Under the pieces are notes generated by a model. The model was not told the origin of the DNA and made no database searches. It was given only the letters and a program-made list of their open reading frames with translations. From NCBI RefSeq assembly GCF_028728205.1, contig NZ_JAQYUU010000001.1, forward strand, positions 421,318-485,317: a stretch of 64,000 nucleotides of DNA, read 5' to 3'. Positions 41,999-59,500 of the stretch are shown in pieces. Each line of letters starts with the position of its first letter. Position 1 is the first letter of the stretch. A program made the position numbers and the translations under genes. This stretch comes from Clostridium sp. 'White wine YQ' (GTDB lineage: Bacteria > Bacillota > Clostridia > Clostridiales > Clostridiaceae).

Positions 41999-42004
41999 TT
42001 TAGA

Positions 42005-42060
42005 AAGGATTATCTTAAAGTGAATTTATATTTACTTTGGGATAATCCTTAAAATTTTTA
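42005..42060 (+). terminator. hairpin terminator-like structure
   Basis: AAGGATTATC ... GATAATCCTT with an internal AAAGT/ACTTT pairing. Confidence 0.4.
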
Positions 42061-42171
42061 TATAAAATATGCATAATCACGAACTTTTACATAAATTTTA
42101 CTTTGCTATAATATAATTATATGGGAAAATATGGTAAAGTTTTCTTATAAAATTATGTAAGGGGATGGGTA

Positions 42172-45100: not shown

Positions 45101-45573
45101 CTTGTACAATTGACAAAGTTACAGATAGAGTAGTTTCAGGGAATAGAATTAAGAACTTAAAGATAAATGGAGTATCAGTTAAAGAAGATACAATATATAC
45201 AGTTGCCATCAATAATTATAGATACAATGGCGGTGGAGGCTTTATGAAAGCCGTTGGATTAAGTAGTACTGATCCAAGTATAGTAACCTATGATTCCTCA
45301 AAGGCATTAGGCGACGATGGACAAGTAAGAAGCTTGATGATGAGCTATATTCAAAATCATAAGACCATTTCTCCAGATTGTTCAAACAATTGGAAGGCAA
45401 GTACAAAGCCTGTTAGCATAATTGGAGATGTAGTTAATCCTTCAACTCCTAGTGAAAACTCAGATCTTCCTAAGACAGGTAGTGTAGTTAGTGCAGAAAG
45501 GCTTTTAGCATTTGGATTGGTATTAGCTGCAATAGGGTACGGATTACAACGTAAAAAGAAGAAAATAAGTTAA
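42172..45573 (+). CDS. LPXTG cell-wall-anchored tandem nucleotidase (two metallophosphoesterase plus 5-prime-nucleotidase C-terminal modules)
   Basis: Signal peptide; two copies of the GNHEFD metallophosphatase motif with downstream His blocks (GGHSHS, AGHAHS); C-terminal LPKTG, hydrophobic span, RKKKK. Confidence 0.85.
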   Translation: MLKRVLRQKKLTALFVAMFVVFSLFSNGFVSIAKAATAEKNFDIIEVTDFHGTLLDSSNNQVAAVLGDRIEKVQNSNPGRTLLLGGGDLYQGSAISNMLKGVPVEQVFSKLGMEVTALGNHEFDWGIDTLKNVTMKGAGYSIVCSNVYDKTTGKRAFDPYKIIEKDGVKIAVIGAITDTTPTIILPAFGDNYKFTDVATEVNSLAKEIKDKKLADVTLALIHEGDNLDNATGPIFDIANSLSNVDAVFGGHSHSKVYANASVTKIPVYIANSSGKGFIDAKFKVTSEGKVEFNTPSAADYTALDNANGYKTSNPIIDQNIKAIVDDANTKVAPISSEVIGKNSGSILKRTQSAEPYGSSFLGKWASDVTRNAVSADVGIQNNGGLRIDIPTGDITVGTMWQFMPFDNTVYKLTMNKAGLKSVLEQAVQDGGKGIQVSGIKFSYNSSNASGERIVNITREDGSPISDSEALTVAAPDFLATGGDGFTNFKNLGGTNPANDSHILVREALINWLRQHKANDPSITTSTENRIINVSGEKTISVVATSDIHGNVYNYDYATGKAPSKPQGLAKVSTYVKGLRASNSNVMLIDNGDTIQGTPLSYYYDMIDTKTEYPMTKVMGAMGYDTWTLGNHEFNYGLDTLNRIIGDARSHDIHVLSANTYKDNGSNFVDPYYIKSFNVNGKEIKVGILGLTTKCIPNWEDAAHYKGLKFNDLVDEAKKWVPEVRAKGADIVIVAAHSGEESASDVIPENEIKALATGVTGIDAIVAGHAHSTLNDLKLKNPEGKVVPVVEPGKWANNVSQIDINIASNGSLNGINTKNVPMDNAIEEDQVIKDLAQPYQDTTLKYIQTVLGTSTGEFKGEGQLEKPTAIMELINKVQKEAAGTQLSIAAPLSASAYIPKGNVTIKDVMSVYVFENFLYGVKMNGKQLKDWMEYSVRYYKQVSNENDPITKDTVLNIADYNLDQLYGATYDIDLTEPACTIDKVTDRVVSGNRIKNLKINGVSVKEDTIYTVAINNYRYNGGGGFMKAVGLSSTDPSIVTYDSSKALGDDGQVRSLMMSYIQNHKTISPDCSNNWKASTKPVSIIGDVVNPSTPSENSDLPKTGSVVSAERLLAFGLVLAAIGYGLQRKKKKIS

Positions 45574-45578
45574 TTAAA

Positions 45579-45622
45579 GGGACGGTTCTACACTTTTAAA
45601 GTGCAGAACCGTCCCCATTTTT
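45579..45622. terminator. bidirectional terminator
   Basis: GGGACGGTTCTaCAC ttttaaa GTGcAGAACCGTCCC CATTTTT. Confidence 0.7.
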
Positions 45623-45773
45623 ATCTGATATTAAAAATTAGCACTAGAGCTAACATTATAAGTCCTATTATTCGAGTTAATAAAACTGATCTTTTTATTC
45701 CAAGAAATGCATTTGTTTGAGGCGTAGCAAAAGGAAATAAAATGATTGTGAGTGCAGCACCTCCGCACATTAT

Positions 45774-46004
45774 TTATAAGCCTATTTTAGGCATGAAAGT
45801 AAGAGGAATACCTATAAATACAGAGAGCAATATACCTGTAACAAAAAACTTTAAATTCCTAGATACTTTTTGATAATAAGAAGTAGTTTTTTTCTCACAT
45901 TCATCACTGCATATAAGCATTTTATTTTCACCTAAATTTTCACTCTTTAAAGTAAGTTCTTTATAGCCATCACCATTTTTACCACACCAAATACATTTGT
46001 CCAT
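45774..46004 (-). CDS. zinc-ribbon (CxxC...CxxxC) small membrane protein
   Basis: CIWCGKNG...ICSDECEK then one TM helix. Its TAA stop is followed in frame by a further 49-codon ORF (45621-45770). Confidence 0.4.
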   Translation of the reverse strand: MDKCIWCGKNGDGYKELTLKSENLGENKMLICSDECEKKTTSYYQKVSRNLKFFVTGILLSVFIGIPLTFMPKIGL

Positions 46005-46040
46005 TTTAACATCTCCAAACTAATAAATATAATGCAGAAA

Positions 46041-46544
46041 TTATATTACATAAATCGAATCCAAATATTTTCTTCCTGTGGTTGTTTTTAAATACTTATC
46101 CTTAAAAGTTTCAATAGCTCGTCTATTCATGTTATCTTCGTAGGCATTAACTAGAAAATCAGCCTCAATAAGAATTTGTAGATCTAAGCCGTTTATTTTG
46201 CTATAACTATGATGGTTTCCTATTAAATAACAAACCCTATCTACTGTTTCTTCATCTAGATTTAAATCTTTAAGTAACTCTCTAGCTACTGGTGGACCCT
46301 CTATTTCTTGATAATTACCAGCTGAACTATTATATTTTCTTTCGCTTTCCTTAATGCCTATATCATGAAGAATAGAGGATATTTCAAGTATCAAAAGTTC
46401 GTTATTATTAAGTCCTTCTAATTCTCCAATATTTTTACTAAAACTGTAAACCTTAAGGGCATGATTTATTCTTCTAATGTCTTTTTCAAAATAGAAAATC
46501 ATTTTTTGTAATACTAAACTTGGAATATGTTCCATAAAAAACAC
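46041..46544 (-). CDS. HD-domain phosphohydrolase
   Basis: ILHDIGI...GNHH motifs; 167 aa. Confidence 0.65.
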   Translation of the reverse strand: MFFMEHIPSLVLQKMIFYFEKDIRRINHALKVYSFSKNIGELEGLNNNELLILEISSILHDIGIKESERKYNSSAGNYQEIEGPPVARELLKDLNLDEETVDRVCYLIGNHHSYSKINGLDLQILIEADFLVNAYEDNMNRRAIETFKDKYLKTTTGRKYLDSIYVI

Positions 46545-46856
46545 CTCTTAGTTAATTTATATAAATGTATTTTATCACTTAATTTATAGCTTGTTCAACT
46601 TATAGAAAAGATTGCCATCAAAATATATAAGATAATTGAGGATATTAATGAAAAATTATCAATAATTGTAGCATTGGAGGAGGAATTTTTAAATTTTGAA
46701 AAATTTATATTGTTTGAGACATGTTCATTTGTTAGAATATACATAGGTAATAAATAACCCAGCGGGACAATAAAGTGCCCGTTTGAAAAAATAGCCCTTT
46801 CGAATAACCTTTAATTTTAGGCTATAAATTCTAATTGTTAGGGAGGAGTAACAAAT

Positions 46857-47549
46857 ATGATGTATTCAAAAGAAGTTGAAGAAATGTGTGTAGTTGCTAA
46901 AGGCCCAAATCATGGACCAGCACCAATTCCTGTAGAAGGAAAATGGGTACAAGCTAAAGAAGTTACAGACATATCAGCATTAACTCACGGAGTAGGCTGG
47001 TGTGCACCACAACAAGGAGCTTGTAAATTAACTTTAAACGTTAAGGATGGAATTATTCAAGAAGCTTTAGTTGAAACTATAGGTTGTTCTGGAATGACTC
47101 ACTCAGCTGCTATGGCATCTGAAATATTACCAGGAAAAACTATATTAGAAGCATTAAATACAGACCTAGTTTGTGATGCTATCAATACAGCTATGAGAGA
47201 ATTATTCCTTCAAATCGTATACGGAAGATCTCAAAGTGCTTTCTCAGAAGGTGGACTTCCTATAGGAGCAGGTCTTGAAGACTTAGGAAAAGGATTAAGA
47301 AGCCAAGTTGGTACAATGTATGGAACTTTAGCTAAAGGCCCAAGATACTTAGAAATGGCTGAAGGATACGTAACTAACGTTGCTTTAGATACTGATAACC
47401 AAATCATTGGATATAAGTTCGTTAACTTAGGAAAAATGATGGAATCTGTAGCTAAGGGAGTAGATGCTCAAACAGCTTTAGAACAAGCAACAGGTCAATA
47501 TGGTAGATTTGATGATGCTGCTAAAGTAATAGACCCAAGACATGCATAA
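46857..47549 (+). CDS. IscU/NifU-like Fe-S scaffold-domain protein with a C-terminal extension
   Basis: GVGWCAPQQGACKLTLNVKDGIIQEALVETIGCSGMTHSAAMASEILPGKTILEAL aligns with the IscU block ...GDAM...KFETFGCGSAIASSS...KGKT.EEAL. Confidence 0.6.
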   Translation: MMYSKEVEEMCVVAKGPNHGPAPIPVEGKWVQAKEVTDISALTHGVGWCAPQQGACKLTLNVKDGIIQEALVETIGCSGMTHSAAMASEILPGKTILEALNTDLVCDAINTAMRELFLQIVYGRSQSAFSEGGLPIGAGLEDLGKGLRSQVGTMYGTLAKGPRYLEMAEGYVTNVALDTDNQIIGYKFVNLGKMMESVAKGVDAQTALEQATGQYGRFDDAAKVIDPRHA

Positions 47550-47576
47550 TTAAGTGGTTGAAGGAGGATAATTAAC

Positions 47577-48578
47577 ATGGCATTATTTGAAAGTTATGAA
47601 AGAAGAATAGGACAGATAACTCCAGTACTAGAAAAGTACGGAATTGCATCTATGGAAGAAGCAAGAAAGATTTGTCAAGATCTTGGATTTGATCCATACA
47701 CAATAGCAAAAGAAACTCAACCAATCGCATTTGAAAATGCTGGATGGGCTTATGTTTTAGGAGCTGCTATTGCTGTTAAAAAGGGAGCTAAAAAAGCTGC
47801 TGATGCTTCTACTGCTATAGGAGAAGGATTACAAGCATTCTGTATCCCAGGATCAGTTGCAGATGATAGAAAAGTTGGTTTAGGACACGGAAACTTAGGA
47901 GCTATGCTTTTAAGTGAAGAAACTAAATGTTTCGCATTCTTAGCTGGACACGAATCATTCGCAGCAGCTGAAGGTGCTATCAAAATAGCTGAAAAAGCTA
48001 ACAAAGTAAGAAAAGAACCATTAAGAGTTATATTAAACGGTCTTGGAAAAGATGCTGCTCAAATAATCTCTAGAATTAATGGATTCACATATGTTCAAAC
48101 TAAGTTTGATTACTACACTGGAGAATTAGCTATAGTTAAAGAAATAGCTTACTCAAACGGTCCAAGAGCTAAGGTTAGATGCTTTGGTGCTGACGACGTT
48201 AGAGAAGGTGTTGCTATAATGCATCATGAGGGAGTTGATGTTTCTATAACTGGTAACTCAACTAACCCAACAAGATTCCAACATCCAGTTGCTGGAACAT
48301 ACAAAAAAGAAATGGTTGATCTAGGAAAGAAATACTTCTCAGTTGCATCAGGTGGTGGTACTGGAAGAACTCTTCACCCAGATAACATGGCAGCAGGTCC
48401 AGCTTCTTATGGTATGACTGATACTATGGGAAGAATGCACTCTGATGCTCAATTCGCAGGATCTTCATCAGTTCCAGCTCACGTTGAAATGATGGGTCTT
48501 ATCGGAATGGGTAACAACCCAATGGTTGGAGCTACAGTTGCAGTAGCAGTTGCTATTGAAGAAGCTTTAAGCAAATAA
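47577..48578 (+). CDS. GGGtGRT-family protein (uncharacterised)
   Basis: Contains the family-defining SGGGTGRTLHP motif; 333 aa; 27-nt gap from the IscU-like gene. Confidence 0.7.
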   Translation: MALFESYERRIGQITPVLEKYGIASMEEARKICQDLGFDPYTIAKETQPIAFENAGWAYVLGAAIAVKKGAKKAADASTAIGEGLQAFCIPGSVADDRKVGLGHGNLGAMLLSEETKCFAFLAGHESFAAAEGAIKIAEKANKVRKEPLRVILNGLGKDAAQIISRINGFTYVQTKFDYYTGELAIVKEIAYSNGPRAKVRCFGADDVREGVAIMHHEGVDVSITGNSTNPTRFQHPVAGTYKKEMVDLGKKYFSVASGGGTGRTLHPDNMAAGPASYGMTDTMGRMHSDAQFAGSSSVPAHVEMMGLIGMGNNPMVGATVAVAVAIEEALSK

Positions 48579-48700
48579 TTTAATTAGTATAAATTAAGTT
48601 AAGAATACAAGACACGTTTTATTAGTGTAAAGCTAGTAAGACGTGTTTTTTTTTATGTTCCTAAAAGGGAAAATATGGGAGGGTGACGAAGTATATAAAT
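48534..48700 (+). repeat. repeat copy A: native 3-prime end of the GGGtGRT gene, its terminator and a conserved downstream segment
   Basis: ACAGTTGC..TATTGAAGAAGCTTTAAGCAAATAATTTAATTAG...ACAAGACACGTTTTATTAGTG..CTAGTAAGACGTGT T-run ATGTTCCTAAAAGGGAAAATATGGGAGGGTG; recurs at 50733, 52031, 55384. Confidence 0.8.
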
Positions 48701-48731
48701 TGGAGAATTATATTCTAAAAGGAAGAATAGT

Positions 48732-49226
48732 ATGATTGATAGGATTAAAAGTAAGATAATTGCTTTATTAGATGAGGATAGTTCAAAATTTCCACTTATA
48801 GTATATATAATTATACCGTTGTTGATGAGTTCAATAGCAAAAGTTATAGGTTATGACTCTATTTTTGTATTGATGATGAGTATAACTATTTTAACAGCAA
48901 TAAGTGCAATAATAGAAATCGTTAGAAAAAAGAAAAATATCAGGAATTTCACAATATATTCTATAATAACACTCCTTGGAATTTTGTGTAGTGTAATGAT
49001 AAAGCTGGGTGGATATTTTTTTGATTCAGGGAATACAACAGCTGGAGTAAATGTAATAAAAGTATTTTTGGGAATTATTTCTTTATTCGTTGATATAATA
49101 GGCATACTGTTTATTATAGATAAAGGAAATCCAGTAAATAAAAAAATAACTATAACATTTAGTATGATTATAATAAACGCAGTAACAATTCTTGCATTAA
49201 TTTTTTTGCCACCTAAGAATATGTAA
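48732..49226 (+). CDS. small polytopic membrane protein (164 aa), cassette 1
   Basis: Four predicted TM helices; starts 30 nt after repeat A. Confidence 0.5.
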   Translation: MIDRIKSKIIALLDEDSSKFPLIVYIIIPLLMSSIAKVIGYDSIFVLMMSITILTAISAIIEIVRKKKNIRNFTIYSIITLLGILCSVMIKLGGYFFDSGNTTAGVNVIKVFLGIISLFVDIIGILFIIDKGNPVNKKITITFSMIIINAVTILALIFLPPKNM

Positions 49227-49233
49227 GAATAAT

Positions 49234-49332
49234 CTTATGATACTCATAATTTTTTCGTATCATTAATAAACTTTTTTGCACTTTGTCTTTTCTTAATTAT
49301 TTATAGAATAGTTTATGAAGTGAAATGAAAAT
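49234..49332 (+). pseudogene. remnant of the 3-prime end of a paralog of the 51077-51452 membrane protein gene
   Basis: CTTTTTTGCACTTTGTCTTTTCtTAATTATTTATAGaATAGTtTATGAaGTgAAAtGAAAATgA is about 85% identical to 51388-51452. Confidence 0.55.
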
Positions 49333-49391
49333 GACTGATTTACTAGTAAGTAGATATTTATAAATAATATTAGGAATGGGGTAACTGAGAA

Positions 49392-50174
49392 TTGGATATT
49401 GAAGAACTTTATGTGATAGGTGAAGAATATTATGTTAAGAAAGAATATAAAAAGGCGTTAGAGCATTTCGAAAAATACTATAGCTCAAATGAATCTTATG
49501 ATTGTTTAAATTATATTGGCTGTTGTTATTTGGGAATGGAAGACTTTGACTCAGCAGTTAACATATTTAAAAGATTAATAAATGAATGCCCTAAAGTAGA
49601 ACGACCAGTTTTTAATTTAGGCAGAGTTTATTTAAAACAAGGCAGGTTACAGGATGCACTAGACTGTTTTAACAATGCAATTAATATAAATCCTAATAGT
49701 GAAGATGCTTATTATTATTTAGGTGTGTACTATGATAAAATTAATGACTTTGATGAAGCAAGAATATACTATGAAAAATCACTATCATTAAATTTTGAGC
49801 AATCAGAAACACATTTAAATCTTGGAATATGTTTTTATAGATTACAATTGTATAATGAAGCATTGAAGGAATTTGATTTAGCATTAAAATATGATGATGA
49901 ATGCATACAAGCAAGAGAGTGTAAATGGATAATTTACATAGAAATCAAAGATTATTCAAAAGCTTTAAGAGAGTTATTATATGTGAATACCATAAATCCA
50001 TATGATACCTATAATTTAATTGATATTATCCATTGTTACTATAAACTTGATGATTTTCGTAATGCACAGGAGTGGGTTAGTAAATTACTAAGCGTTGAGC
50101 CAGATAATGAGTTTGCTTGCAAAACTATAGAAAGAATAAATTTAAAACTTAGTAAAATCATGGAAAATATATGA
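49392..50174 (+). CDS. TPR-repeat protein
   Basis: Repeated Y/F..A..YY.LG..Y 34-residue units; TTG start with a weak RBS. Confidence 0.6.
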   Translation: MDIEELYVIGEEYYVKKEYKKALEHFEKYYSSNESYDCLNYIGCCYLGMEDFDSAVNIFKRLINECPKVERPVFNLGRVYLKQGRLQDALDCFNNAININPNSEDAYYYLGVYYDKINDFDEARIYYEKSLSLNFEQSETHLNLGICFYRLQLYNEALKEFDLALKYDDECIQARECKWIIYIEIKDYSKALRELLYVNTINPYDTYNLIDIIHCYYKLDDFRNAQEWVSKLLSVEPDNEFACKTIERINLKLSKIMENI

Positions 50175-50258
50175 AAGATTAATATTGATGATGCCGAATT
50201 TGATGAAGAGAATGTTGGGGCGCTTACAGTAGAGATATTTGAGAAATCTCTAATTGCG

Positions 50259-50600
50259 GTGGGAATTAGTTCAATGGAAAATGGAAGTGCTAAAATTTTC
50301 GTTAATCCACAACAAGCTGAAGAGATAAGTATAGCTCTAAAGCAGGCAATAGAAATGATAGAAGATAAACAAGTTAAGTTTAATGTAGATGAAATAAAGC
50401 ATATTAAGACTATGACAGTCAAAGAAAACAATTTTCACATAAAAAATGCTGGAACAATTATAATACAAGTTTACAATAAAGAAAAAATAGAAATATGTGT
50501 TTCATTATTAAAAGGGGCAGACCCAGTGCTTTGGTTAGATATAATCAGCACAAAAAAAGTAGTATCGGTTTTAGATAAGACAATAAATAGTATGCGTTAG
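50259..50600 (+). CDS. hypothetical protein; reading frame is open in frame from 50175
   Basis: No ATG with an RBS. The same frame is open immediately after the TPR gene's TGA stop and encodes a protein-like sequence. Confidence 0.35.
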   Translation: MGISSMENGSAKIFVNPQQAEEISIALKQAIEMIEDKQVKFNVDEIKHIKTMTVKENNFHIKNAGTIIIQVYNKEKIEICVSLLKGADPVLWLDIISTKKVVSVLDKTINSMR

Positions 50601-50732
50601 TATTATTAGGGAACATTTATTAATAGTTTATGAGAAGCTTTAAAGAGAGTTATAATAACTCTCTTTTTTTGAATCACATAGGAATGCGTAATAGTATATG
50701 ATTTTAAGGTGTTATATCATTCTAGGTTTACT

Positions 50733-51010
50733 ATATCGATTGGCGCAACTCTGTTGAATAGAGCTTATAAAAAGCTCTAGGAATCTAATGGTAATACACT
50801 TATAATACACAAATGATATGTTAATCGGCTTATTTTAAGCACTTACAGTTGCTATTGAAGAAGCTTTAGCAAAATAATTTAATTAGAATTAATTGAATTA
50901 GAATTAATTGAATTAAAATACAAGACACGTTCTATTAGTGAAAACTAGTAGGACGTGTCTTTTTTTATGTTCCTAAAAGGGAAAATATGGGAGGGTGGCG
51001 AAATATATAA
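50733..51010 (+). repeat. repeat copy B
   Basis: Shares about 130 nt of upstream sequence with copy C, then ACAGTTGCTATTGAAGAAGCTTTAGCAAAATAA, a terminator hairpin, and the same downstream 45 nt as copy A. Contains the internal duplication GAATTAATTGAATTA x2. Confidence 0.8.
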
Positions 51011-51076
51011 GCTGGGGATTAATAAATATACAAAAGTTAAATATGTATATCGTTATACTGAAAGGGATGATTAGAT

Positions 51077-51452
51077 ATGAATAATAAAAATGTAGGATAT
51101 AGCATTGTAACAGTAAGTGTGTTACTTATTACACAATTAATAATAAGAAGCGTAGGAATAGAAAATATTTCTGCTCAAGTATTTGTGGCACTTTTAGTTA
51201 TCGCTTGTTCTCTTGCGATATTTGGTACTTATAAGGATGGGAAAAAAGGATTCGGAATTAGATACAATTGTCACGATATTGTTAATTTTAGCAAGCATAT
51301 TAATGTCTGTTACTCTGATAATATTTAAAGAATATCCAGCTATGATAGACAAGTATGGATTACTACTTATGATATTGTCATTAGGAAGCTTTTTTGCACT
51401 TTGTCTTTTCATAATTATTTATAGGATAGTATATGATGTTAAACGAAAATAA
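51077..51452 (+). pseudogene. membrane protein gene split by a frameshift at an A6 run (~51248)
   Basis: ORFs 51077-51328 and 51213-51452 overlap in different frames. Joining them at GGGAAAAAAGG gives one ~125-aa three-TM protein. Confidence 0.5.
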
Positions 51453-51530
51453 TCCATTAATTGAGGAAGTTTTAATAAGTAAAGCATAGATAAATGGTTT
51501 TATTAGAAACCGCTAAAAGGAGCTATATAT

Positions 51531-51896
51531 ATGGATAAGAAAAATAGTATTATTATAATAATAATTTTATCAATTTATACATTAGTTAATTTAATAGGAT
51601 ATAATAATATCCCAAGTAACGTGATAGTATTAGTATCTATAATTTGTGCATTAGGAATAATAATTTGCGTATTGAAATATGATTATTTTCGAACTCATAG
51701 TAAATTTATTTCAGGTTTTTTTATAAGCGTTGCTATTGGAGTTTCATTAGTTGCGTTAGATATCGTTTTAAAAGGCAGAGCATCATTCTATACTGAAAGG
51801 GTAAGCGACTATGTTTATTATGTTATCACAGCACTGTTTTTTGGAGGTGTTTTCATGGGCTTAATTGGGGTTGTAAAGGATAAAATGAAAAAATAA
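51531..51896 (+). CDS. small polytopic membrane protein (121 aa)
   Basis: AAAGGAG RBS; 3-4 TM helices. Confidence 0.5.
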   Translation: MDKKNSIIIIIILSIYTLVNLIGYNNIPSNVIVLVSIICALGIIICVLKYDYFRTHSKFISGFFISVAIGVSLVALDIVLKGRASFYTERVSDYVYYVITALFFGGVFMGLIGVVKDKMKK

Positions 51897-52030
51897 TATG
51901 ATTTTTATAATTAAATAGGGAAGTAAAAGAAAAAATACTTAGCCTAGACTAGGTACTTTTCCATTTAGAACTAGAAAGCTAATCAAAATATTCTAATATG
52001 ATTTAAGGGAACTGTATTACTTTAGTTTTA

Positions 52031-52290
52031 AATATATCGATTTGTTAGATTCAGTTAAAAGAGCGTATAGAAAGCTTTAGGAATCTAATAGTAATACACC
52101 TATAATACACAAATGCTATGTTAATCGGCTTGTTTTAAGCACTTACAGTTGCTATTGAAGAAAGTCTGAACAAATAATTTAATTAGTACTAATTAAATTA
52201 AAGATACAAGACACGTTTTATTAGTGAAAACTAGTAGGACGTGTCTTTTTTGATTTTACGAAAGGGAAAGTATAGAGATAATTAGTCGCA
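52031..52290 (+). repeat. repeat copy C
   Basis: ATATCGATT...TAGGAATCTAATAGTAATACACCTATAATACACAAATG..TATGTTAATCGGCTTGTTTTAAGCACTTACAGTTGCTATTGAAGAAAG...ACAAGACACGTTTTATTAGTGAAAACTAGTAGGACGTGTCTTTTTTG. Confidence 0.8.
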
Positions 52291-52410
52291 ACTTAGAAGA
52301 TGAATTAGGTTCTTTCATAATTAATTACTACGGGATTGAAATTAATTATTTATAAAGAAATAGTATGGTATAATTTGTATATATTAAATTAATTTATGGA
52401 GGTCAGTTTA

Positions 52411-53118
52411 GTGAAAATAATTGAACTTGAGCCAGAGTTCATTTTAGATCAAGATAGTGAAACTGAGATTATACATATGGATGTAGGATATAAAGATATT
52501 CCATATGGATTTTTTTATACTAAATGTAAATATTTATCTTATGATTTTAATGGGAAAAAGATTGAAGACAAAAAAGATTATATTAGAACTAAATCTCTTT
52601 GGTTTGTAGATTTTAGTGATAAATCAAAGCACGAGGTCTTACCGTTTGGTAATTATGATATAAATGAAACAAGTATAATTGGAAACTATTTATACATTAC
52701 TAAGATTATAGACAAAGATCAAGATGGAATACTTGAATATGACTATGATGGAGGAGACATTTATAGAATTAATATACACAATCTTCAAGTTGAATTTTGC
52801 TGTAACATTGAGCCATATAATTTTCATGGTTTTGAAGTTGCTACTGAACAATTTTTAGTTTTTCGTTCAGAAGATCAAATTCCTGATACAGATGAAATTG
52901 TGTTTATTGATTTGAAAAATAAAACTAAAGCTATTCTTCTAAATGATTGGAATAAGGAAAGTATGAATTATACATTTATTTTTGATGAATTTGGAATGCC
53001 TATTTATGTAATTACTAAAAGGTATGTAAACAAAGATGAAATAGGTTCAAGTAATGATAAATTAGGTTGTTTCAGTTGGACTAATTTCTTGAATAAACTT
53101 AAATGGAATAGTCTATAA
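52411..53118 (+). CDS. hypothetical cytoplasmic protein (235 aa)
   Basis: GTG start 8 nt after a GGAGG RBS; no recognisable motif. Confidence 0.5.
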   Translation: MKIIELEPEFILDQDSETEIIHMDVGYKDIPYGFFYTKCKYLSYDFNGKKIEDKKDYIRTKSLWFVDFSDKSKHEVLPFGNYDINETSIIGNYLYITKIIDKDQDGILEYDYDGGDIYRINIHNLQVEFCCNIEPYNFHGFEVATEQFLVFRSEDQIPDTDEIVFIDLKNKTKAILLNDWNKESMNYTFIFDEFGMPIYVITKRYVNKDEIGSSNDKLGCFSWTNFLNKLKWNSL

Positions 53119-53210
53119 AATATTATTACAAATGTCGCATTATTAAAAATAAAATAATTAAAATATTGAATTGGGATTAAATAATTATAATTGTTTTTTG
53201 GGGGAGAAAT

Positions 53211-53792
53211 ATGACAAGTATATACTTTATAAGACATGCTCAGCCAGACCATGATTGGGAAGAGGATGGAACACGGCCGTTAAGTGATGAAGGGATGAAT
53301 GATTCCAAAAGAGTAACTGAGTTTTTTAGGGAAATGGAGATAGAGTACTATATATCAAGTCCATACAAAAGAAGCATTGATACAATAAAAGAAAGTGCAG
53401 ATGGACATGGCATTAGTATTGCTTTGGATGAAAGATTAAGAGAACGTGAAAGTGGCCTATGCGGTAATAACATGGAAATGTTCAAAAGACGGTGGGAAAA
53501 CCTTGACTTTCACGAAGAATGTGGAGAGTCACTCAAGATGGTTCAAGAACGTAATATAAAAGCAATTTTTGAAATCTTAATTAATTACAAAGATGCGAAT
53601 ATTGTGATTGGAACACATGGTACAGCATTAAGTACGATTCTCAATTATTTTGAACCAGCATATTGCTGCGATGATTTTTTGAGAATGATTGATTTTATGC
53701 CATACATAATTCGTCTTGATTTTGATGGAATAAATTACATTGGAAAGGAAGAGTTATTGATTGTAAAAAAAGAATTTAAGGGTAAAAAGTAA
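53211..53792 (+). CDS. histidine-phosphatase (phosphoglycerate-mutase-like) family protein
   Basis: IYFIRHAQPD catalytic-His motif; 193 aa. Confidence 0.65.
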   Translation: MTSIYFIRHAQPDHDWEEDGTRPLSDEGMNDSKRVTEFFREMEIEYYISSPYKRSIDTIKESADGHGISIALDERLRERESGLCGNNMEMFKRRWENLDFHEECGESLKMVQERNIKAIFEILINYKDANIVIGTHGTALSTILNYFEPAYCCDDFLRMIDFMPYIIRLDFDGINYIGKEELLIVKKEFKGKK

Positions 53793-53878
53793 TTTCATAT
53801 TTTTATTGGAGAAATAATAAATTAAGCCTTGCATTCAAGCTATATTCAAGCTTTTTGCAAGGCTTTTTTAATTACTAA

Positions 53879-55261
53879 TTATTCATCTTTAAGATCATCA
53901 ATATGAAGGGTGGTATACCTATCATTTTTAAGCGTCTTCACAATTTTTTGCAGAGGCGAGTCGGGATTGTAATTAATGTTTAGTTTATTACCATTTGTAT
54001 TGAAATCAATATAATCTATTTCTATAGATGGGTGGTAATAAAAACTTTTAAGTATATTAGGGTTACCTTCATTAAATTTATCTATCATACGCTGTGTATC
54101 TGCGATAGGATCAGATATACGTCCTAATGGTGTTGGAACAAATAAATGATAATCATCAGGCTTGTACACGTTGTCTTTTTTTGAATAATCATAAGGTTCG
54201 TATATATATTGAAAATACTCGCTAATTATGTTCTTTTGTTCCTTAGTATCCCTATAATGAGGACTCTCGTAATATGAAATAGGAATATTTAAAGCACTTG
54301 CGGTGTCTATACCTTTTTCAATAACTGCTCTTGTTTCAGCTTCAGTACTATTTACGTCCTTTGACATTTCCTCACCAGTTCCACTTGCAGTGTTTCCAGA
54401 TTGATGTGAATAGCCATGAAGACCAATTTCGCCACCTTTATTAAGCATATAATCTAGTATATCAACAAAACCTACATTTACTATATTATCTTTTGTGAGT
54501 AAATCATTATCAAAGTTGGTTGAAGGAACAATGAATCTAGGCATCCATGAAACATGAAACTTCATCCCATTTGAATAAAGTAAATTTGACATGATTTTTA
54601 TTTTTGTTTGATTTCTATCTACAATATTTGAATAACCACAACCGAAATCTTCAAATCTAATAAGGGCGATTTTGTCATTATGATGTATTAAAGGTTCCTC
54701 AGGTGCTTTAACTTCATCTTGAATAAGATTTATTTTTTTGTTTTGGAAATCGAATACAGCAATTAAATCAAAAAGCTTTTCTATATCTGATATTGAGATA
54801 TAGAAGGTGTTTTTATAATTTATTAAATGTCCTCGAAGATGTCCTTTTTTAGAGTTTTTTTCGTAAGAGTCTTCTGTTAAAGAAATTTTATTACTATTAT
54901 TAGTTAAACATAGTGATCCCGTTGAATTATCTACAGTGTAATTTAATTTTTTTGAAATAAAATTAAGTGGTATATAATATCTTTGGGATTTGAGTATCAT
55001 AGGAACATCATCAATGCTAGTCCCATCCAAAATGCTTAAGCTTACATCATGGATTTCTGATATATGTCTATCAGAAAAATTAACTTTGGGAATATAAGAA
55101 CGCTTGAAATTGTTCACTGGAGGTGAATTTGAATAGGTCTTGTTAATGATAGTTGGTTTGGTTTTTAAAAAATTTAAATAAGAATGAATGTTATATGCGA
55201 TTAATAGAATTAAAATTAACGAGGTAAAAGAAAAAATGAGTATTTTTAAATTCTTTGGCAT
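53879..55261 (-). CDS. membrane-anchored DUF2334-like (polysaccharide-deacetylase-like) protein
   Basis: N-terminal TM helix; KIALIRFEDFG and GLHGYSHQ blocks as in DUF2334 proteins. Family assignment is from memory. Confidence 0.5.
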   Translation of the reverse strand: MPKNLKILIFSFTSLILILLIAYNIHSYLNFLKTKPTIINKTYSNSPPVNNFKRSYIPKVNFSDRHISEIHDVSLSILDGTSIDDVPMILKSQRYYIPLNFISKKLNYTVDNSTGSLCLTNNSNKISLTEDSYEKNSKKGHLRGHLINYKNTFYISISDIEKLFDLIAVFDFQNKKINLIQDEVKAPEEPLIHHNDKIALIRFEDFGCGYSNIVDRNQTKIKIMSNLLYSNGMKFHVSWMPRFIVPSTNFDNDLLTKDNIVNVGFVDILDYMLNKGGEIGLHGYSHQSGNTASGTGEEMSKDVNSTEAETRAVIEKGIDTASALNIPISYYESPHYRDTKEQKNIISEYFQYIYEPYDYSKKDNVYKPDDYHLFVPTPLGRISDPIADTQRMIDKFNEGNPNILKSFYYHPSIEIDYIDFNTNGNKLNINYNPDSPLQKIVKTLKNDRYTTLHIDDLKDE

Positions 55262-55383
55262 ATATTTTATGCTCCTTTAATATTATGTATAAATCGTTCA
55301 CATTAAGATGATTATACCATTATTTTGAGAAGATTACATTCAATAAAAATTAAATTTATGTTACAAATTGTATAAGAAAATTT

Positions 55384-55490
55384 ACAATTGCTATTGAATT
55401 ATGTATGAAGCTGTTTAAATATAAATTAAGTTGAAGATGAAAGACACGTTTTATTAGTGAAGACTAGTAAGGCGTGTCTATTTTCATTTG
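55384..55490 (+). repeat. repeat copy D (degenerate)
   Basis: ACAATTGCTATTGAAtt...GAAAGACACGTTTTATTAGTGAAGACTAGTAAGGCGTGTCT retains the gene-end fragment and hairpin. Confidence 0.7.
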
Positions 55491-55621
55491 TTTGTACAAA
55501 AAGCCTTTTATTCAATATAAAGGTAAATAGTGAAGTATATAGTAAAATAATCGATAAATAGATAGTGCATCAAAATAGAATTTATAAAATTATTTAAGAG
55601 TAAACGAAAGGAGAAGTTATT

Positions 55622-56122
55622 ATGGAATTAATTTATTTAGGAATTTTGATAATTATAATACCTATATTAATATGGATAGCTTTAAAAGTAACATATAGAA
55701 GTATCAAAAGAAATGCTTATGGTAAGCTTATATTAAGTGTAAAGGATCATACATATGCAATTGATATTCTTGCAGGAGTGATTTTCTTATTGCTTGGAGG
55801 AAAGAATTTAATTGTAGTATTTATTGATGGAGAGACATTAATTACTCCAGGTTCATATTTGATGATGTTCTCACTGTGTTCAATTATCTATTTTGTTAGA
55901 GCAACATTTAGAATTGAAATAAGAGAAAATGGAATTCTATCAAAAAAAAGTGGTTGGACATGGGAAGAGGTAGAAAGTAGTTACATAAAAGAAACAAATA
56001 GTTCAGTAGTTATAACTTTTAAGTTTAAAAATAGTAGAAAAAAACCTACAAGTATTATGGTACATAAAAAAGATAGAATGGAAGTAGAGAGGAAGTTAGA
56101 AGAAATATTTACGAAAAAGTGA
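55622..56122 (+). CDS. membrane protein with two N-terminal TM helices and a bacterial-PH (YdbS/DUF304-like) cytoplasmic domain
   Basis: 166 aa; AAAGGAGAAG RBS; topology matches bPH_2 proteins. Confidence 0.5.
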   Translation: MELIYLGILIIIIPILIWIALKVTYRSIKRNAYGKLILSVKDHTYAIDILAGVIFLLLGGKNLIVVFIDGETLITPGSYLMMFSLCSIIYFVRATFRIEIRENGILSKKSGWTWEEVESSYIKETNSSVVITFKFKNSRKKPTSIMVHKKDRMEVERKLEEIFTKK

Positions 56123-56279: not shown

Positions 56280-56364
56280 GTTAGAAAGTTAACAAAATTA
56301 AAAAATATTTACAAATTGGTTAAAATATTATAGCATTATTATGTAAGAAATTACAAAAAACCAT

Positions 56365-56515
56365 AGAAAAAGGCAAATTTATTGAAAGATAAAGACGCAA
56401 AGCCACGGGCCTACGGTATTCTAAATATGCATTTTGAAATTATTGTAATTATATTGGAGAATTATTTGTGATTGGCATATTTATACTAAGGTCGCCGGGT
56501 TACCAGAGTGGTATA
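56365..56515 (+). promoter_or_regulatory. c-di-GMP-I (GEMM) riboswitch
   Basis: AAGGCAAAtttattGAAAgataaaGACGCAAAGCCacGGGCCTA ... GGTCGCCGGGTTACCAGA matches the GEMM-I consensus: GGCAAA, a GAAA tetraloop on a 6-bp stem (TTTATT/GATAAA), GACGCAAAGCC and the 3-prime GCNGGGUUACC block. Sits 84 nt upstream of the Rhs start codon. Confidence 0.7.
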
Positions 56516-56598: not shown

Positions 56599-59500
56599 AT
56601 GAAGAAAAACGTTCTAATAAGGGCCATATGTACTTTTCTGACTTTTTCTACTTTATTATTTTCTTTTAATGATGTAGTTGCTTATGCGGCTGAAAACTTA
56701 TCAAATCAGCCAAAGGGCGAATACTATGGAAAGGATATCAATAAGGAAAACCAAAAAGTAAAAACTGAAAATCAAACAGAAAACATTTCTACAAAGGCTC
56801 TTAGAAAACCAAGCACAATTAAACAAAAGAAGGAAGAATCTTATAGTAAGGATAAGGAAGTAGTTAGTAAAAGAACTGCAAATAGTAAAACCTATAAGAT
56901 AGATAACAAAACTGAAGTAAAAGATATTTATCTTGATAAAGTGAACTATAAAGATGCAAATGGAAATTATCAAGAGGTGGATAATACCTTAGCGCTAAAT
57001 AGCAATGGAGGATATTACGAAAATAAGGCAAACGATTATAAGGTTAATTTTCCTACTGAAATAACAAAAGATAAGGGAGTATCAGTACAAAAAGGAAATA
57101 CGTCTGTTACATTATTTCCTATGGAAGGGGACTTTTCAAGAAGTGCAGCTTCAGAAAATGCAATATTATACAATGATGTATTTGATGGAGTAGATTATGA
57201 GTATACAGCTAACCCAGATGGAGTTAAAGAGGATATTATACTTAATAGATATGTTGATACTTCTACATTTAAGTATCAAGTAAGCACTAAAGGAGTAATT
57301 CTTAAAGAAGAATTAAATTCAATAAGAGGATATGAACCAGGCAAAAAAGATCCTACCTTTATATTAAGTGCGCCTGTAATGGTTGATGCTTCAGGAAAAA
57401 AGAATAGCAATCTAACCATAAAGCTAGATAAAAAAATATTTGGTAAGGATGTTATTGCAGTAACAGTAGATGAAGATTGGCTCAAATCACCTGAGAGAGC
57501 ATATCCAGTAAAGGTTGACCCTCAAGTTAATATTTATAGTGATAGGATTAATATCGCGTCAGCGGAGGAAAATGCACCTAACACTAATACATTAAACAAT
57601 GGATATGTATATGTGGGAATGGACGATGGAGTAGCATCTGGAAATAATCAATATAAAATTAATGGGCTTCAAAAGACTAGAGCCTACGTTCAGATAAATG
57701 GTAATTTGGGAGTGGATATTCCTAAAGAGGCAACAATTAAGTCCGCTAATTTTGAAATGTATAAGTACACTAACTTTTCAAGTTCTTCAAGAGAAATTGG
57801 ATTATATAGTGTAGATGATAGTTATGATGTGAGCCAAGTTACTTGGAATCAACAGCCTAAGAATAAAACATTCTATTCTTCTGCGATGATAGATGGAAGT
57901 ATAGGTTATATTAGTTGGGATATTAAGTCATTGGTTAGTGATTGGGTAAATGGAAAAACAAATAATGGATTCCTCTTGCAGTATTTAAATGAAACCCAAC
58001 AGTGTGAAACCTTTGCAACTCAAAATAATGAATATGAATCTAGAAGACCAAAGATTGAAATCGTTTATGAGTTTGTAGATGGTGTAGATACTAATATGCA
58101 ATTTGGTGCAACAAATATTAATTTGAGGCCTATTTCTGAGCATGACAGTGAAGGGGAACTTAAAGTTGATGGAATTATAGTAGATGGATTAGTAAAACCA
58201 ACAGCTACTGTAAATTATGAATTAGATGTTGAAAATCCTGATTACAAGGGAAGTGTACAAGCTAGCTACGTTTATAAATATCCTGATGGTTCAATGTACT
58301 CAAGTATTTTTCCAAAGGCTTATGTTTATAAGGGAAAAGATAGTAACTGGCAGTCGGATAAGATATTAACTCCTAAATTAGATCAATTATACAGAATTAA
58401 GGCAACTGCAACCTTGGATGGAGAAACAAGTAGTCCAGCATACAGTGACTACTTCCAAATCTATCAAGTTCAAGCTAAGGATACTATTCCGTATATAGCA
58501 AGCTTTTATGGAGTACCTAATTCTGTAATTATGAGTGATAATAAAGTTGGAGATACTCTGCTTGTAGAGGGGAATACTCTTTTCATAAGAAATCCCAAGA
58601 AAAATGCTGGAAAGCCATATACGCCTCCATCCCTTACAGATGCTAGAAAAAAAGAAATAGATAGTGCTCTTATGGGAAGAAAAAAGCATTGTATTTATGG
58701 GTTTGAACCAATAAATTTACTAACTGGTAACTTTATATATGAAGCTGATGATGCTAGTTTAACTGACTACAATGGAGACTTTATAATAAAGAGAACTTAT
58801 AACGCAATGGAAGAAATTCATGATGGATACTTTGGAGTAAAATGGGACTTTAATTTTAATAAGTCTTTATCAGCACTTGCAGATGGAACCATAATATTTA
58901 ATCAAGGTGATGGAAGTACCATCTACTATAGAAAAAATAGTGATGGCAGCTACAGTGGACCAGTGGGAGAAAATTTAAAGCTATCCTTAGTTAATGATGA
59001 TAGCAGAAAAAATATAGGCTACGAGGTTACTGATGGTTTAACCACCTATCAATTTAATAAGATGGGACTTTTAGATTCACAAGTTGATGAAAAAGGTGAT
59101 ATTACAAAGCTTGCCTATAATGAAGATTATAAATTAACAAGTATAACTTCACCTTCAGGAAAGGTTTTTGGAATAACCTTAAATGATGAAGGAAGAATAG
59201 GCACAATAACATTACCAAATTCAAGCGTATTAAAATATAGTTATGATGGAAATGGTAACTTAGTTTCGTATATTGATGCAAATGGACATGAAACAAAGTA
59301 TCAATATGATGACAAAGGAAGAATGACATCATTTGTTGATGCCAAGGGAAATACCGTAGTAACTAATACTTATGATGAGCAAAATCGTGTAACTACTCAA
59401 ACAGATGCTCAAGGTAAGAAAATATATATGAATTATTACGACGGGTACAATGAAACAATTGATGCAAAGGGCAATAAGACACAATATTATTATGATGCAC

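What the first reader, a model, noticed from the sequence alone, without database searches (positions are those of the whole stretch)
48534..55500. Four direct copies of the GGGtGRT gene 3-prime end plus terminator bound small gene cassettes: a recombination hotspot
The last ~40 nt of the GGGtGRT coding sequence, the following AATAATTTAATTAG and the long terminator hairpin AAGACACGTTTTATTAGTGAAAACTAGTAGGACGTGTCTT occur at the native site (48534) and again at 50845, 52144 and 55384. Copies B and C also share about 130 nt of upstream sequence (ATATCGATT...TAGGAATCTAATGGTAATACAC.TATAATACACAAATG.TATGTTAATCGGCTT) that is not present at the native site. Each copy is followed by a small, mostly membrane-protein, gene in the same orientation. 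Remnants of displaced genes are present: 49234-49332 is about 85% identical to 51388-51452, and the 51077-51452 gene is frameshifted. This is the footprint expected when successive elements integrate at the 3-prime end of one gene and each brings a replacement copy of that gene end. That is how islands targeting tRNA or guaA ends behave, and how orphan toxin/immunity cassettes are displaced in Rhs/CDI loci. Here the target is a protein-coding gene of unknown function, the cassettes are tiny, and no integrase is visible. The Rhs gene lies inside the last cassette.
Basis: seen in the sequence. Interest (0 to 1): 0.85.

Follow-up and report, generated by a model that had tools for sequence, protein, structure and literature searches.

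The report
Mobile-element landing-site scars after GGGtGRT
The four repeats are attachment-site scars left where integrating mobile elements (a conjugative element and prophages with a dedicated integrase) have repeatedly landed at the end of the GGGtGRT gene; this is a known kind of hotspot at a target gene I could not find described as one.

Summary
Four direct copies of the GGGtGRT 3' end plus a 40-nt terminator hairpin lie at 48540, 50839, 52139 and about 55379. None occurs elsewhere in the window, and none is expected by chance.

The window matches Clostridium sp. 'White wine YQ'. It is 93% identical to C. paridis up to 2 nt past the GGGtGRT stop. At that point C. paridis carries a 29.3-kb ICE: tyrosine integrase, ImmA/ImmR-like pair, FtsK, Rep_trans relaxase, TcpC and a CwlT-like hydrolase. 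The right end of that ICE is the '130-nt B/C-specific segment', followed by a gene-end mimic, the hairpin and the His-phosphatase/DUF2334 genes. Copies B and C are therefore attR-type junctions.

Integrases at least 76% identical to the C. paridis one sit next to GGGtGRT in 4 of 4 genomes examined. Each is flanked by four TAATACAC repeats, and B and C each carry two. A sister strain, YIM B02551, has the same junction units around unrelated cargo. C. intestinale strains vary immediately after the gene.

The window has no integrase, so the cassettes are defective remnants. Nothing places the Rhs gene inside a cassette. This is a known kind of structure (tandem accretion and decay) at a new target.

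The parts
47577..48578 (+). GGGtGRT gene, the target (attB-bearing) gene. An invariant stretch, GTTGCTATTGAAGAA at 48549-48563, lies about 15-30 nt before the stop.
   Evidence: Pfam PF14057, E = 2.4e-196. The protein is identical to P0128 of Clostridium sp. 'White wine YQ'. Synteny with C. paridis and YIM B02551 (93% nt identity) ends 2 nt after the stop in C. paridis.
48540..48712 (+). Copy A: native gene end (39 nt), 30-nt spacer, terminator hairpin 48609-48649 and a ~60-nt 'leader'. It looks like an unoccupied or regenerated attB/attL-like site.
   Evidence: From core to hairpin it is 94% identical to the right half of the C. paridis attR. It has no P arm upstream, where the coding sequence lies instead.
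48713..50714 (+). Cassette 1: 164-aa membrane protein (48732-49226), 3' remnant of an X2-like gene (49260-49332), TPR protein (49392-50174), 113-aa ORF (50259-50600) and terminator 50642-50666.
   Evidence: A 53%-identical homologue of the TPR protein lies in an Rhs orphan array of another Clostridium.
50715..51030 (+). Copy B, an attR-type (or attP-like) junction. It contains the P arm 50715-50838 with two arm-type motifs (GTAATACAC at 50791, ATAATACAC at 50802), the gene-end mimic 50839-50877 (ALTVAIEEALAK*, in frame, with a TAA just upstream), a spacer with a 15-nt tandem duplication (50884-50913), the hairpin 50922-50961 and the leader to about 51030.
   Evidence: 85% identical over 277 nt to the right end and attR of the C. 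paridis ICE. Motif positions are; alignments are.
51077..51896 (+). Cassette 2: frameshifted 124-aa membrane-protein gene (51077-51452) and a 121-aa membrane-protein gene (51531-51896).
   Evidence: No family match was found for the 121-aa gene; the frameshifted gene was not scanned.
52015..52275 (+). Copy C, an attR-type junction. It contains the P arm 52015-52138 (motifs at 52091 and 52102), the gene-end copy 52139-52177 (…EESLNK*), the hairpin 52208-52247 and a partial leader.
   Evidence: 91.5% identical to unit 12548-12770 of YIM B02551. Its right half is 96% identical to the native gene end and terminator of YIM B02551, so it carries an ancestral-type native end displaced to the right.
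52396..55261 (.). Cassette 3: 240-aa protein (+, 52396-53118), histidine phosphatase (+, 53211-53792) and a DUF2334/polysaccharide-deacetylase-like protein (-, 53879-55261).
   Evidence: Pfam. The region 53146-54293 (the phosphatase gene and the visible 3' part of the DUF2334 gene, to the edge of L001) is 87% identical to what follows attR in C. paridis; the 240-aa gene is absent there.
55379..55487 (+). Copy D, a degenerate old junction. It has a TTACAATTGCTATTGAA core with the P-type 'TTACA' left edge, a spacer and the hairpin 55442-55479. No P arm is detectable.
   Evidence: In the P-arm test against shuffles, 821-930 of 1000 shuffles reached the observed alignment score.
55622..56122 (+). 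166-aa membrane protein with a weak DUF5673 match, the first gene after the last junction. Whether it is chromosomal or cargo is undecided.
   Evidence: DUF5673 at 25.8 bits, cut-off 26.7.

Best explanation
The 3' end of GGGtGRT is the chromosomal attachment site (attB) for a subclade of phage/ICE-type tyrosine integrases in this group of Clostridium. A second, unrelated integrase family also uses it. An element's attP holds three parts: an int-distal P arm of ~100-125 nt with two TAATACAC arm-type sites; a core that mimics the last ~40 nt of the gene, whose invariant part is GTTGCTATTGAAGAA; and an int-proximal arm with four TAATACAC sites. Integration at the core keeps the gene intact. It also leaves, at the far end of the element, the structure 'P arm + gene-end copy + the displaced old terminator', which is attR. 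The window shows the result of several such rounds. A is the current gene end, B and C are attR-type junctions, and D is an older, eroded one. Between them lie 1.3-3.2 kb of low-GC cargo. All integrase and transfer genes are gone. They were lost either by deletion or, more economically, because a composite element excised through an inner att site and left its outer cassettes behind (accretion followed by partial excision). The hairpin is the native intrinsic terminator of GGGtGRT in this clade, copied or displaced at each round. Shown here: the repeats, the terminator structure, the intact ICE at the same site in the sister species, the identity of its right end with the B/C segment, the integrase-target association, the shared arm motifs and the strain-to-strain cargo variation. 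Inferred: the crossover position, the order of events, how the integrase-proximal parts were lost, and whether any cassette can still move.
For: (1) The window is 92.9% identical to C. paridis over 39525-48580, and homology stops 2 nt after the stop codon. From there C. paridis has a 343-aa tyrosine integrase, an M78 peptidase, an HTH repressor, DUF961, FtsK/SpoIIIE, a Rep_trans relaxase, TcpC and an ATPase. 29.3 kb further on come a lysozyme/NlpC-P60 hydrolase, RnlA-type and DUF2971 cargo, then the B/C-type P arm, gene-end copy, hairpin and leader, then the His-phosphatase and DUF2334 orthologues. (2) B and C are 85-86% identical to that ICE end over 234-277 nt. (3) Integrases 76-79% identical to the C. 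paridis one (P0146, P0149, P0145) all lie convergent with a GGGtGRT gene, ~130 nt from its stop. Relatives at 70% and 65% identity do not. (4) All of these elements have four tandem (G/A)TAATACAC repeats between the stop codon and int. B and C each have two, and GTAATACAC occurs nowhere else in the window. (5) YIM B02551, 92.7% identical to the window, has the same junction units at about genome-average identity but with unrelated cargo genes. (6) Ten C. intestinale places that encode the identical GGGtGRT protein show seven different arrangements directly after the gene. These include an intact 313-aa integrase preceded by a homologous hairpin, truncated integrases with PemK and CBASS, and a 7.8-kb island flanked by a 94-nt direct repeat. 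(7) The gene-end copies keep the reading frame but carry other alleles. C's allele is the native allele of YIM B02551, and A's right half best matches the C. paridis attR. (8) The array has 27.5% GC against 32.2% upstream. (9) In a related species the same hairpin type is the native terminator, 15 nt after the stop. (10) The literature describes exactly this three-step path of integration, decay and new integration at the att site holding the target-gene end (PMC5704250).
Against: No integrase, excisionase or int-proximal arm (four TAATACAC repeats) is present in the window, so the cassettes lack a complete attL/attR pair. Their left ends (hairpin plus leader) are not the known left end of the C. 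paridis ICE. The leader shows no detectable homology to the integrase-proximal region of the C. intestinale element. The leader has a fairly discrete right edge in five copies that have different neighbours, which simple decay does not predict. Only 16.5 kb of the 29.3-kb C. paridis ICE was seen. The crossover site is inferred, not mapped. No circular form or empty site was available for this species.
Confidence: 0.8

Rival explanations
1. The array is an active cassette platform rather than dead scars. Each cassette ends in a usable attR (P arm plus core). Any element of the GGGtGRT-specific integrase clade that lands at copy A could then excise with B or C instead of its own attR, and so capture, shuffle or deliver 1-2 cassettes. 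The ~300-nt unit, with terminator and leader, would insulate and express each cassette. This would be an integron-like or CIME-like store, possibly of immunity-type genes.
For: Junction units are conserved at about genome-average identity between the window and YIM B02551 while the cargo is entirely different. The P arm and leader have fairly discrete outer edges in copies with different neighbours. Unit types are not in positional register between genomes: window C matches the YIM native end, and window A matches the C. paridis attR and YIM copy 3. Cargo in the C. paridis ICE sits directly next to the P arm. The TPR gene and the YIM 115-aa membrane protein have homologues lying side by side in an Rhs orphan array.
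Against: No recombinase is present in the window. One cassette gene is frameshifted and another is a remnant, copy D is eroded, and YIM copy 2 is degenerate; all of this points to decay. No circular junction or alternative arrangement was observed. The immunity idea rests on two homologies at 36-53% identity.
Confidence: 0.15
2. The array arose by local tandem duplication and unequal crossing-over of the native terminator region and its neighbouring small membrane-protein gene, followed by divergence, with no site-specific integration.
For: A and B share hairpin, leader and the 3' end of the same small gene. Repeats of ~300 nt would support unequal homologous exchange, which may well reshuffle the array secondarily.
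Against: B and C carry ~125 nt that are absent from the native site. That segment is the right end of an intact ICE in the sister species and holds the integrase arm motifs. Cargo genes are mutually unrelated. The gene-end copies are foreign alleles. Integrases sit at this exact site in five genomes.
Confidence: 0.04
3. The repeat is a dispersed MITE/REP-like element or a small-RNA gene family (promoter-like TATAAT in the P arm, ~140-nt transcript ending at the hairpin) that resembles the GGGtGRT end only by accident.
For: The unit contains a TATAAT box and a strong terminator. Promoter-like matches occur in the core of A, B and C.
Against: All copies lie within 7 kb after GGGtGRT. The exact hairpin 18-mer occurs once in the whole C. 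paridis genome, at this locus, and not at all in the viral or metagenome collections for the P arm. There is no Rfam match at gathering thresholds. The 'TATAAT' is part of the TAATACAC repeat that is found four times next to every cognate integrase. Promoter-like hits are not enriched over shuffles (84 found against 76 +/- 9 expected).
Confidence: 0.01

Closest known systems
ICESt1/ICESt3 and their CIMEs at the 3' end of fda in Streptococcus thermophilus (tandem accretion and decay; Pavlovic 2004 and Bellanger 2011, as cited in PMC5704250)
   Same: The target is the 3' end of a protein-coding gene and the integrase is a tyrosine recombinase. The gene end is repeated at each junction, and decayed elements without integration or transfer genes sit in tandem. 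New elements integrate at an att site that holds the gene end.
   Different: The target gene is GGGtGRT. The cassettes here are much smaller (1.3-3.2 kb). They keep only the int-distal (attR-type) arm, not a full attL/attR pair. Mobility is untested.
ICEBs1-type ICEs (Int, ImmA/ImmR, FtsK-like coupling protein, Rep_trans relaxase, CwlT-like hydrolase); comparison from my own knowledge
   Same: The C. paridis element at this site has this gene set and order, with cargo at the int-distal end.
   Different: ICEBs1 integrates in a tRNA-Leu gene. Here the site is the GGGtGRT 3' end, and the same integrase subclade is also carried by prophage-like elements (pRha, cI-like).
Tandem arrays of integrative elements at a gene 3' end, for example SGI1 at thdF and IME/ICE composites at tRNA-Lys (PMC5704250)
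   Same: Several att sites lie in direct orientation at one hotspot, with hybrid junctions between neighbouring elements.
   Different: Those arrays contain recognisable, mostly intact elements. Here only cargo and att scars remain.
Integron cassette arrays and recombinase-associated immunity-gene arrays of Bacteroidales (rAID-1); the latter is recalled from memory, not tested
   Same: Small genes, mostly in one orientation, are separated by a repeated recombination-site-like unit next to a place where a tyrosine recombinase acts.
   Different: There is no resident integrase and no attI/Pc. The repeat is a 300-nt phage-type att unit with a terminator, not an attC hairpin. The integrases seen at the site score far below the integron-integrase cut-offs.
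Rhs/CDI orphan toxin-immunity arrays
   Same: A gene 3' end is repeated ahead of small genes, and an Rhs gene is nearby. Two cassette-gene homologues occur in a true Rhs orphan array elsewhere.
   Different: The repeated end belongs to GGGtGRT, not to a toxin gene. There are no Rhs fragments between 48.6 and 56.3 kb, and the array lies upstream of the Rhs gene, not downstream.

Membership tests
Site-specific integration hotspot with tandem att remnants (accretion/decay of ICEs, IMEs, prophages) | [quoted passage not shown] | tested here: met
   Four copies of the GGGtGRT end, with none expected by chance.
Site-specific integration hotspot with tandem att remnants (accretion/decay of ICEs, IMEs, prophages) | A cognate site-specific recombinase lies next to the same target in related genomes | tested here: met
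   C. paridis Int and three relatives at 76-79% identity lie ~130-170 nt from the GGGtGRT stop. A second integrase family is found there in C. intestinale.
Site-specific integration hotspot with tandem att remnants (accretion/decay of ICEs, IMEs, prophages) | Junction sequence outside the core matches the end of an intact element and carries integrase arm sites | tested here: met
   The B/C P arm matches the right end of the 29.3-kb C. paridis ICE (85-86%). The TAATACAC motifs are shared with the int-proximal arms.
Site-specific integration hotspot with tandem att remnants (accretion/decay of ICEs, IMEs, prophages) | Content at the site varies between close strains while the flanks are conserved | tested here: met
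   Window versus YIM B02551 versus C. paridis, and seven arrangements among C. intestinale places with the identical GGGtGRT protein.
Site-specific integration hotspot with tandem att remnants (accretion/decay of ICEs, IMEs, prophages) | Excision or integration demonstrated (circular form, empty site in the same species) | not testable with these tools
   This needs PCR, long reads or conjugation assays. No empty site was found for this species.
CIME (cis-mobilizable element, as defined in PMC5704250) | [quoted passage not shown] | tested here: met
   No integrase by tblastn; no transfer genes among the ORFs.
CIME (cis-mobilizable element, as defined in PMC5704250) | Retains both attL and attR | tested here: not met
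   Cassettes end in an attR-type unit (P arm plus core). The int-proximal arm with four TAATACAC repeats is absent from the window, and their left ends are core plus terminator plus leader.
CIME (cis-mobilizable element, as defined in PMC5704250) | Mobilised in cis by an ICE integrated in tandem | not testable with these tools
   This requires an experiment.
Integron | Resident IntI integrase with attI and Pc at the head of the array | tested here: not met
   There is no integrase in the window. Integrases at the site in relatives score 52 bits or less against the integron-integrase model, whose cut-off is 265.
Integron | attC sites between cassettes | tested here: not met
   The repeat is a ~300-nt unit whose hairpin is a perfect-stem, U-tailed intrinsic terminator with strand-specific G.U pairs.
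Rhs/CDI orphan toxin-immunity array | The repeated segment is the conserved end of the toxin gene, followed by a variable toxin tip and an immunity gene | tested here: not met
   The repeat derives from GGGtGRT. RHS repeats are found only from 56599 onward.
Dispersed MITE/REP-type repeat | Many copies at unrelated loci | tested here: not met
   The only copies in the window are the four after GGGtGRT. There is one exact hairpin 18-mer in the C. paridis genome, at the orthologous locus. The complete source genome could not be scanned.

The most novel reading that the evidence does not exclude
The array is a working cassette store. Each 1-3-kb cassette carries only an attR-type site. An ICE or prophage of the GGGtGRT-specific integrase clade that lands at copy A can therefore leave with one or more cassettes by using B or C as an alternative attR. 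It could equally drop cassettes it brought. The result would be a shared, integron-like pool of small genes (possibly orphan immunity genes against Rhs-type toxins) exchanged among Clostridium strains without any resident recombinase.
Probability: 0.15. Interest if true: 0.6.

Novelty: new member of a known kind. Interest (0 to 1): 0.33.

Why it matters
The work identifies the 3' end of GGGtGRT, a conserved and abundant gene of unknown function in anaerobes, as a dedicated landing site for a definable integrase subclade carried by both ICEs and prophages. It also shows that a second, unrelated integrase family uses the same site. This gives a simple marker for finding islands in the C. intestinale / C. 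paridis group; CBASS, PemK and RnlA-type cargo were seen at this site. It also explains why some assemblies end exactly at this gene: two contigs stop at its stop codon. Finally, it offers a tidy natural example of attR-only remnants with which to test whether alternative att sites let ICEs pick up neighbouring DNA. It does not reveal a new recombination mechanism.

Tried and rejected
(1) An exact look-up of the window's GGGtGRT protein, and of P0128, found no contig on record. Strain-level comparison within the source species was therefore impossible.
(2) The hairpin 18-mer scan of 185,579 species genomes gave one relevant hit, C. paridis, plus two chance hits in Rubrobacteraceae and Hyphomicrobiaceae MAGs. 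A dispersed repeat is rejected.
(3) The P-arm pattern gave 0 hits in viral contigs and 0 in JGI metagenomes, and the P-type core pattern gave 0 in metagenomes. No further examples were obtained.
(4) tblastn with both integrase types against the window found nothing better than E = 1.3. No integrase pseudogene remains.
(5) A test for a degenerate P arm upstream of D did not exceed shuffles.
(6) I tested whether the leader derives from the region between hairpin and int in the C. intestinale element. It did not exceed shuffles, so the origin of the leader is unexplained.
(7) Pfam and NCBIfam gave no match for the 164-, 113-, 121- and 240-aa cassette proteins or for the YIM 186-aa protein; the YIM 140- and 115-aa proteins gave only far-below-cut-off hits. 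All-against-all BLASTP showed no relationship among the cassette proteins.
(8) Rfam at gathering thresholds found no RNA family in the array.
(9) The idea that the window's A, B, C order is a circular permutation of the YIM order (C-type, A-type, B-type) fits the unit similarities. I did not pursue it, because the cargo between units is unrelated and three types give little statistical power.
(10) PHROGs, PADLOC, structure prediction and fold search were not used, because the question was settled by genomic context.

Full report
**Observation**

The region holds four direct copies of the last ~39 nt of the GGGtGRT gene (47577-48578), a short AT-rich spacer and a 40-nt hairpin with a T-run. They are A 48540-48712 (the real gene end), B 50839-51030, C 52139-52275 and D about 55379-55487. 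The core 18-mer matches four times with up to 3 mismatches, against 0.17 expected. The hairpin matches twice, against 0.00 expected. Neither occurs elsewhere in the 64 kb.

All four hairpins score as intrinsic terminators. In an alignment of ten homologous hairpins from five genomes the 18-bp stem is kept, and its G.U pairs work only on the + strand. It therefore acts as an RNA terminator.

B and C share ~125 nt more upstream, and A and B share ~60 nt more downstream. The 49260-49332 remnant and the frameshift in 51077-51452 are real; the frameshift lies in an A6 run, and removing one A gives 124 aa. D is the weakest copy and has no detectable upstream arm. One detail of the finding is off: C is followed by a 240-aa soluble protein, not a membrane protein.

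**Where the window comes from**

The GGGtGRT protein is identical to that of Clostridium sp. 'White wine YQ', and the cassette TPR protein is 100% identical to a protein of the same organism. The nearest genomes that could be read are:
- C. paridis YIM B02565, 92.9% nt identity over 9 kb upstream;
- Clostridium sp. YIM B02551, 92.7% nt identity;
- C. intestinale, whose GGGtGRT protein is 98% identical.

**What sits at this site in relatives**

In C. paridis, homology with the window stops 2 nt after the GGGtGRT stop codon. The next genes are a 343-aa tyrosine integrase on the opposite strand, an M78 (ImmA-like) peptidase, an HTH repressor, DUF961, FtsK/SpoIIIE, a Rep_trans relaxase, TcpC and an ATPase.

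29.3 kb further along the same contig (coordinates) come a lysozyme/NlpC-P60 hydrolase and RNase H/RnlA-type and DUF2971 cargo. After that come the histidine-phosphatase and DUF2334 genes that lie after copy C in the window.

This is an ICEBs1-like conjugative element bounded by attL at the gene end and attR at a B/C-type unit. B and C are thus attR-type junctions, and their extra 125 nt is the int-distal (P) arm of the element.

**The recombinase and its specificity**

Three integrases 76-79% identical to the C. paridis one, from three other genomes, were looked up. Each lies convergent with a GGGtGRT gene, ~130 nt from its stop, in prophage-like elements. Relatives at 70% and 65% identity are next to other genes.

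Between the stop codon and the integrase gene, every one of these elements has four tandem (G/A)TAATACAC repeats. The P arms of B and C, of the C. paridis attR and of the YIM B02551 units each hold two copies of the same motif. GTAATACAC occurs nowhere else in the window. These are best read as arm-type integrase-binding sites; that reading is an inference from their position and conservation.

A second integrase of 313 aa, only 21% identical, lies 197 nt after the same stop codon in C. intestinale. It is preceded by a homologue of the same hairpin.

**Variation between strains**

Ten C. intestinale places encoding the identical GGGtGRT protein show seven arrangements immediately after the gene:
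- an intact integrase element;
- a truncated integrase with PemK and CBASS;
- an integrase remnant with PemK;
- a 7.8-kb island flanked by a 94-nt direct repeat of the terminator region;
- an ABC-transporter/sigma-factor block;
- a PTS operon;
- an apparently simple, island-free arrangement.

YIM B02551 has an array like the window's. It has the native end plus hairpin plus leader, a degenerate P arm/core, a full unit 91.5% identical to window C, and a fourth unit. Between them lie small genes unrelated to any in the window.

The right halves of the units are not in positional register between genomes. Window C is 96% identical to the native end of YIM B02551 and carries its …EESLNK allele. 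Window A is 94% identical to the displaced end at the C. paridis attR. This is what crossovers at a common core produce.

The invariant stretch GTTGCTATTGAAGAA lies between diagnostic differences on both sides. It is the likely crossover region, but this is inferred and not mapped.

In a more distant relative (the P0004 species) the same hairpin type is the native terminator, 15 nt after the stop, with a chromosomal CorC-type gene next to it. The hairpin is therefore ancestral chromosomal sequence that elements copy or displace.

**Mechanism**

The best-supported model is repeated integration at the GGGtGRT core. Each incoming element pushes the older attR and its terminator to the right. The integrase-proximal parts are then lost.

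The economical route to that loss is the accretion model in the literature (PMC5704250). A composite element excises through an inner att site and leaves the outer cassettes behind. Plain deletion is the alternative.

The array is AT-richer than its surroundings, 27.5% against 32.2% GC. The window has no integrase and no int-proximal arm. The cassettes therefore cannot excise on their own.

**What stays unexplained**

- The origin of the ~60-nt leader is unknown, as is the reason for its fairly discrete right edge.
- The cassette left ends are not the left end of the C. paridis ICE.
- It is not known whether B and C are still usable as alternative attR sites.

**Rivals**

Local duplication is contradicted by the element-derived P arm, the foreign alleles and the unrelated cargo. 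A dispersed repeat or small RNA is contradicted by the single genomic hit in C. paridis, the absence of Rfam matches and the arm-site reading of the 'TATAAT'. The Rhs/CDI analogy fails because the repeat is not a toxin-gene end.

The Rhs gene (56599 to the window end; LysM, DUF6531 and 31 RHS repeats) has its own c-di-GMP-I riboswitch. Nothing places it inside a cassette.

There is a weak link to toxin immunity. A 53%-identical homologue of the cassette TPR protein and a 36%-identical homologue of a YIM cassette membrane protein lie side by side in a genuine Rhs orphan array of another Clostridium.

**Comparison with known systems, and novelty**

The structure works like the ICESt1/ICESt3-CIME arrays at the fda 3' end and other tandem arrays at gene ends (PMC5704250). 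It fails one defining feature of a CIME, namely a retained attL and attR pair. It also fails the defining features of integrons, Rhs orphan arrays and MITEs.

A full-text search found 13 papers that mention GGGtGRT; none of the 10 listed concerns integration, judging by title and abstract. The finding is therefore a new member of a known kind: a new target gene and a definable integrase subclade, not a new mechanism.

**Verdict**

| Item | Assessment |
|---|---|
| Observation | confirmed |
| Interest | about 0.33 |
| Most novel reading not excluded | a live, integrase-free cassette store served by visiting ICEs and prophages |
| Probability of that reading | about 0.15 |

Noticed in passing
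window 56362-56507 and 56599-64000: A c-di-GMP-I riboswitch (74.5 bits) lies directly upstream of a secreted Rhs protein of more than 2467 aa (LysM, DUF6531, 31 RHS repeats) that runs off the window. A polymorphic-toxin gene under c-di-GMP control is worth a look of its own.
   Followed up: partly
L027 (uncultured Clostridium, ERZ28638131 scaffold_6) 1-10768: This is an Rhs orphan array with many 100-700-nt internal repeats and RHS-fragment ORFs. It contains, side by side, a 53%-identical homologue of the window's cassette TPR protein and a 36%-identical homologue of the YIM B02551 115-aa cassette membrane protein. This hints that the cassette genes are immunity-type.
   Followed up: partly
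L019 13662-13906; L014 and L016 contig ends: In YIM B02551 the fourth unit's hairpin is broken in its loop by unrelated sequence, and the contig ends 70 nt later. Two contigs of the P0004 species end exactly at the GGGtGRT stop codon. Assemblies tend to break at this site, as expected for repeated att units or an inserted repeat element.
   Followed up: no
L010 18086-20815, L011 18385-21002: The C. intestinale element with the 313-aa integrase encodes a ~900-aa protein. In L010 it has a precomputed Pfam RdRP (PF05183) hit, which is unusual cargo for a bacterial integrative element.
   Followed up: no
L009 11200-20390; L004 11101-12320: Other C. intestinale strains carry, at the same site, a truncated integrase followed by PemK and a complete CBASS operon (DncV-like, E1/E2, JAB, SAVED), or an integrase remnant plus a 317-aa PemK-domain protein. 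The hotspot collects defence genes.
   Followed up: no
L005 11007-11100 and 18843-18934: A 7.8-kb island of five large unannotated genes is flanked by a 94-nt direct repeat (94% identity) of the native C. intestinale terminator region, starting 5 nt after the stop. This suggests a third element type whose core lies after the stop codon.
   Followed up: partly
window 50884-50913: The spacer of copy B contains a perfect 15-nt tandem duplication (TAGAATTAATTGAAT twice). It is absent from A, C, the C. paridis attR and the YIM units.
   Followed up: no
window 48650-48712, 50962-51030; L019 11073-11138, 12736-12803; L001 (reverse complement) 6647-6740: A ~60-nt 'leader' after the hairpin (…AAAAGGGAAAATATGGGAGGGTGRCGAARTATATAA…) is conserved in five copies that have different genes downstream, and it ends fairly sharply. 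Its origin and function are unexplained.
   Followed up: partly
window 4445-4554 and 33169-33253: A SAM riboswitch (79.7 bits) and a single tRNA-Leu(CAA) gene lie elsewhere in the window. No mobile-element features were looked for next to the tRNA.
   Followed up: no
L029-L032 3001-4799: An integrase 70% identical to the C. paridis one (Eubacterium callanderi cluster, 124 blocks of the collection) lies convergent with a Zn-dependent phospholipase C gene instead of GGGtGRT. A switch of target specificity therefore occurs between ~70% and ~76% identity.
   Followed up: no
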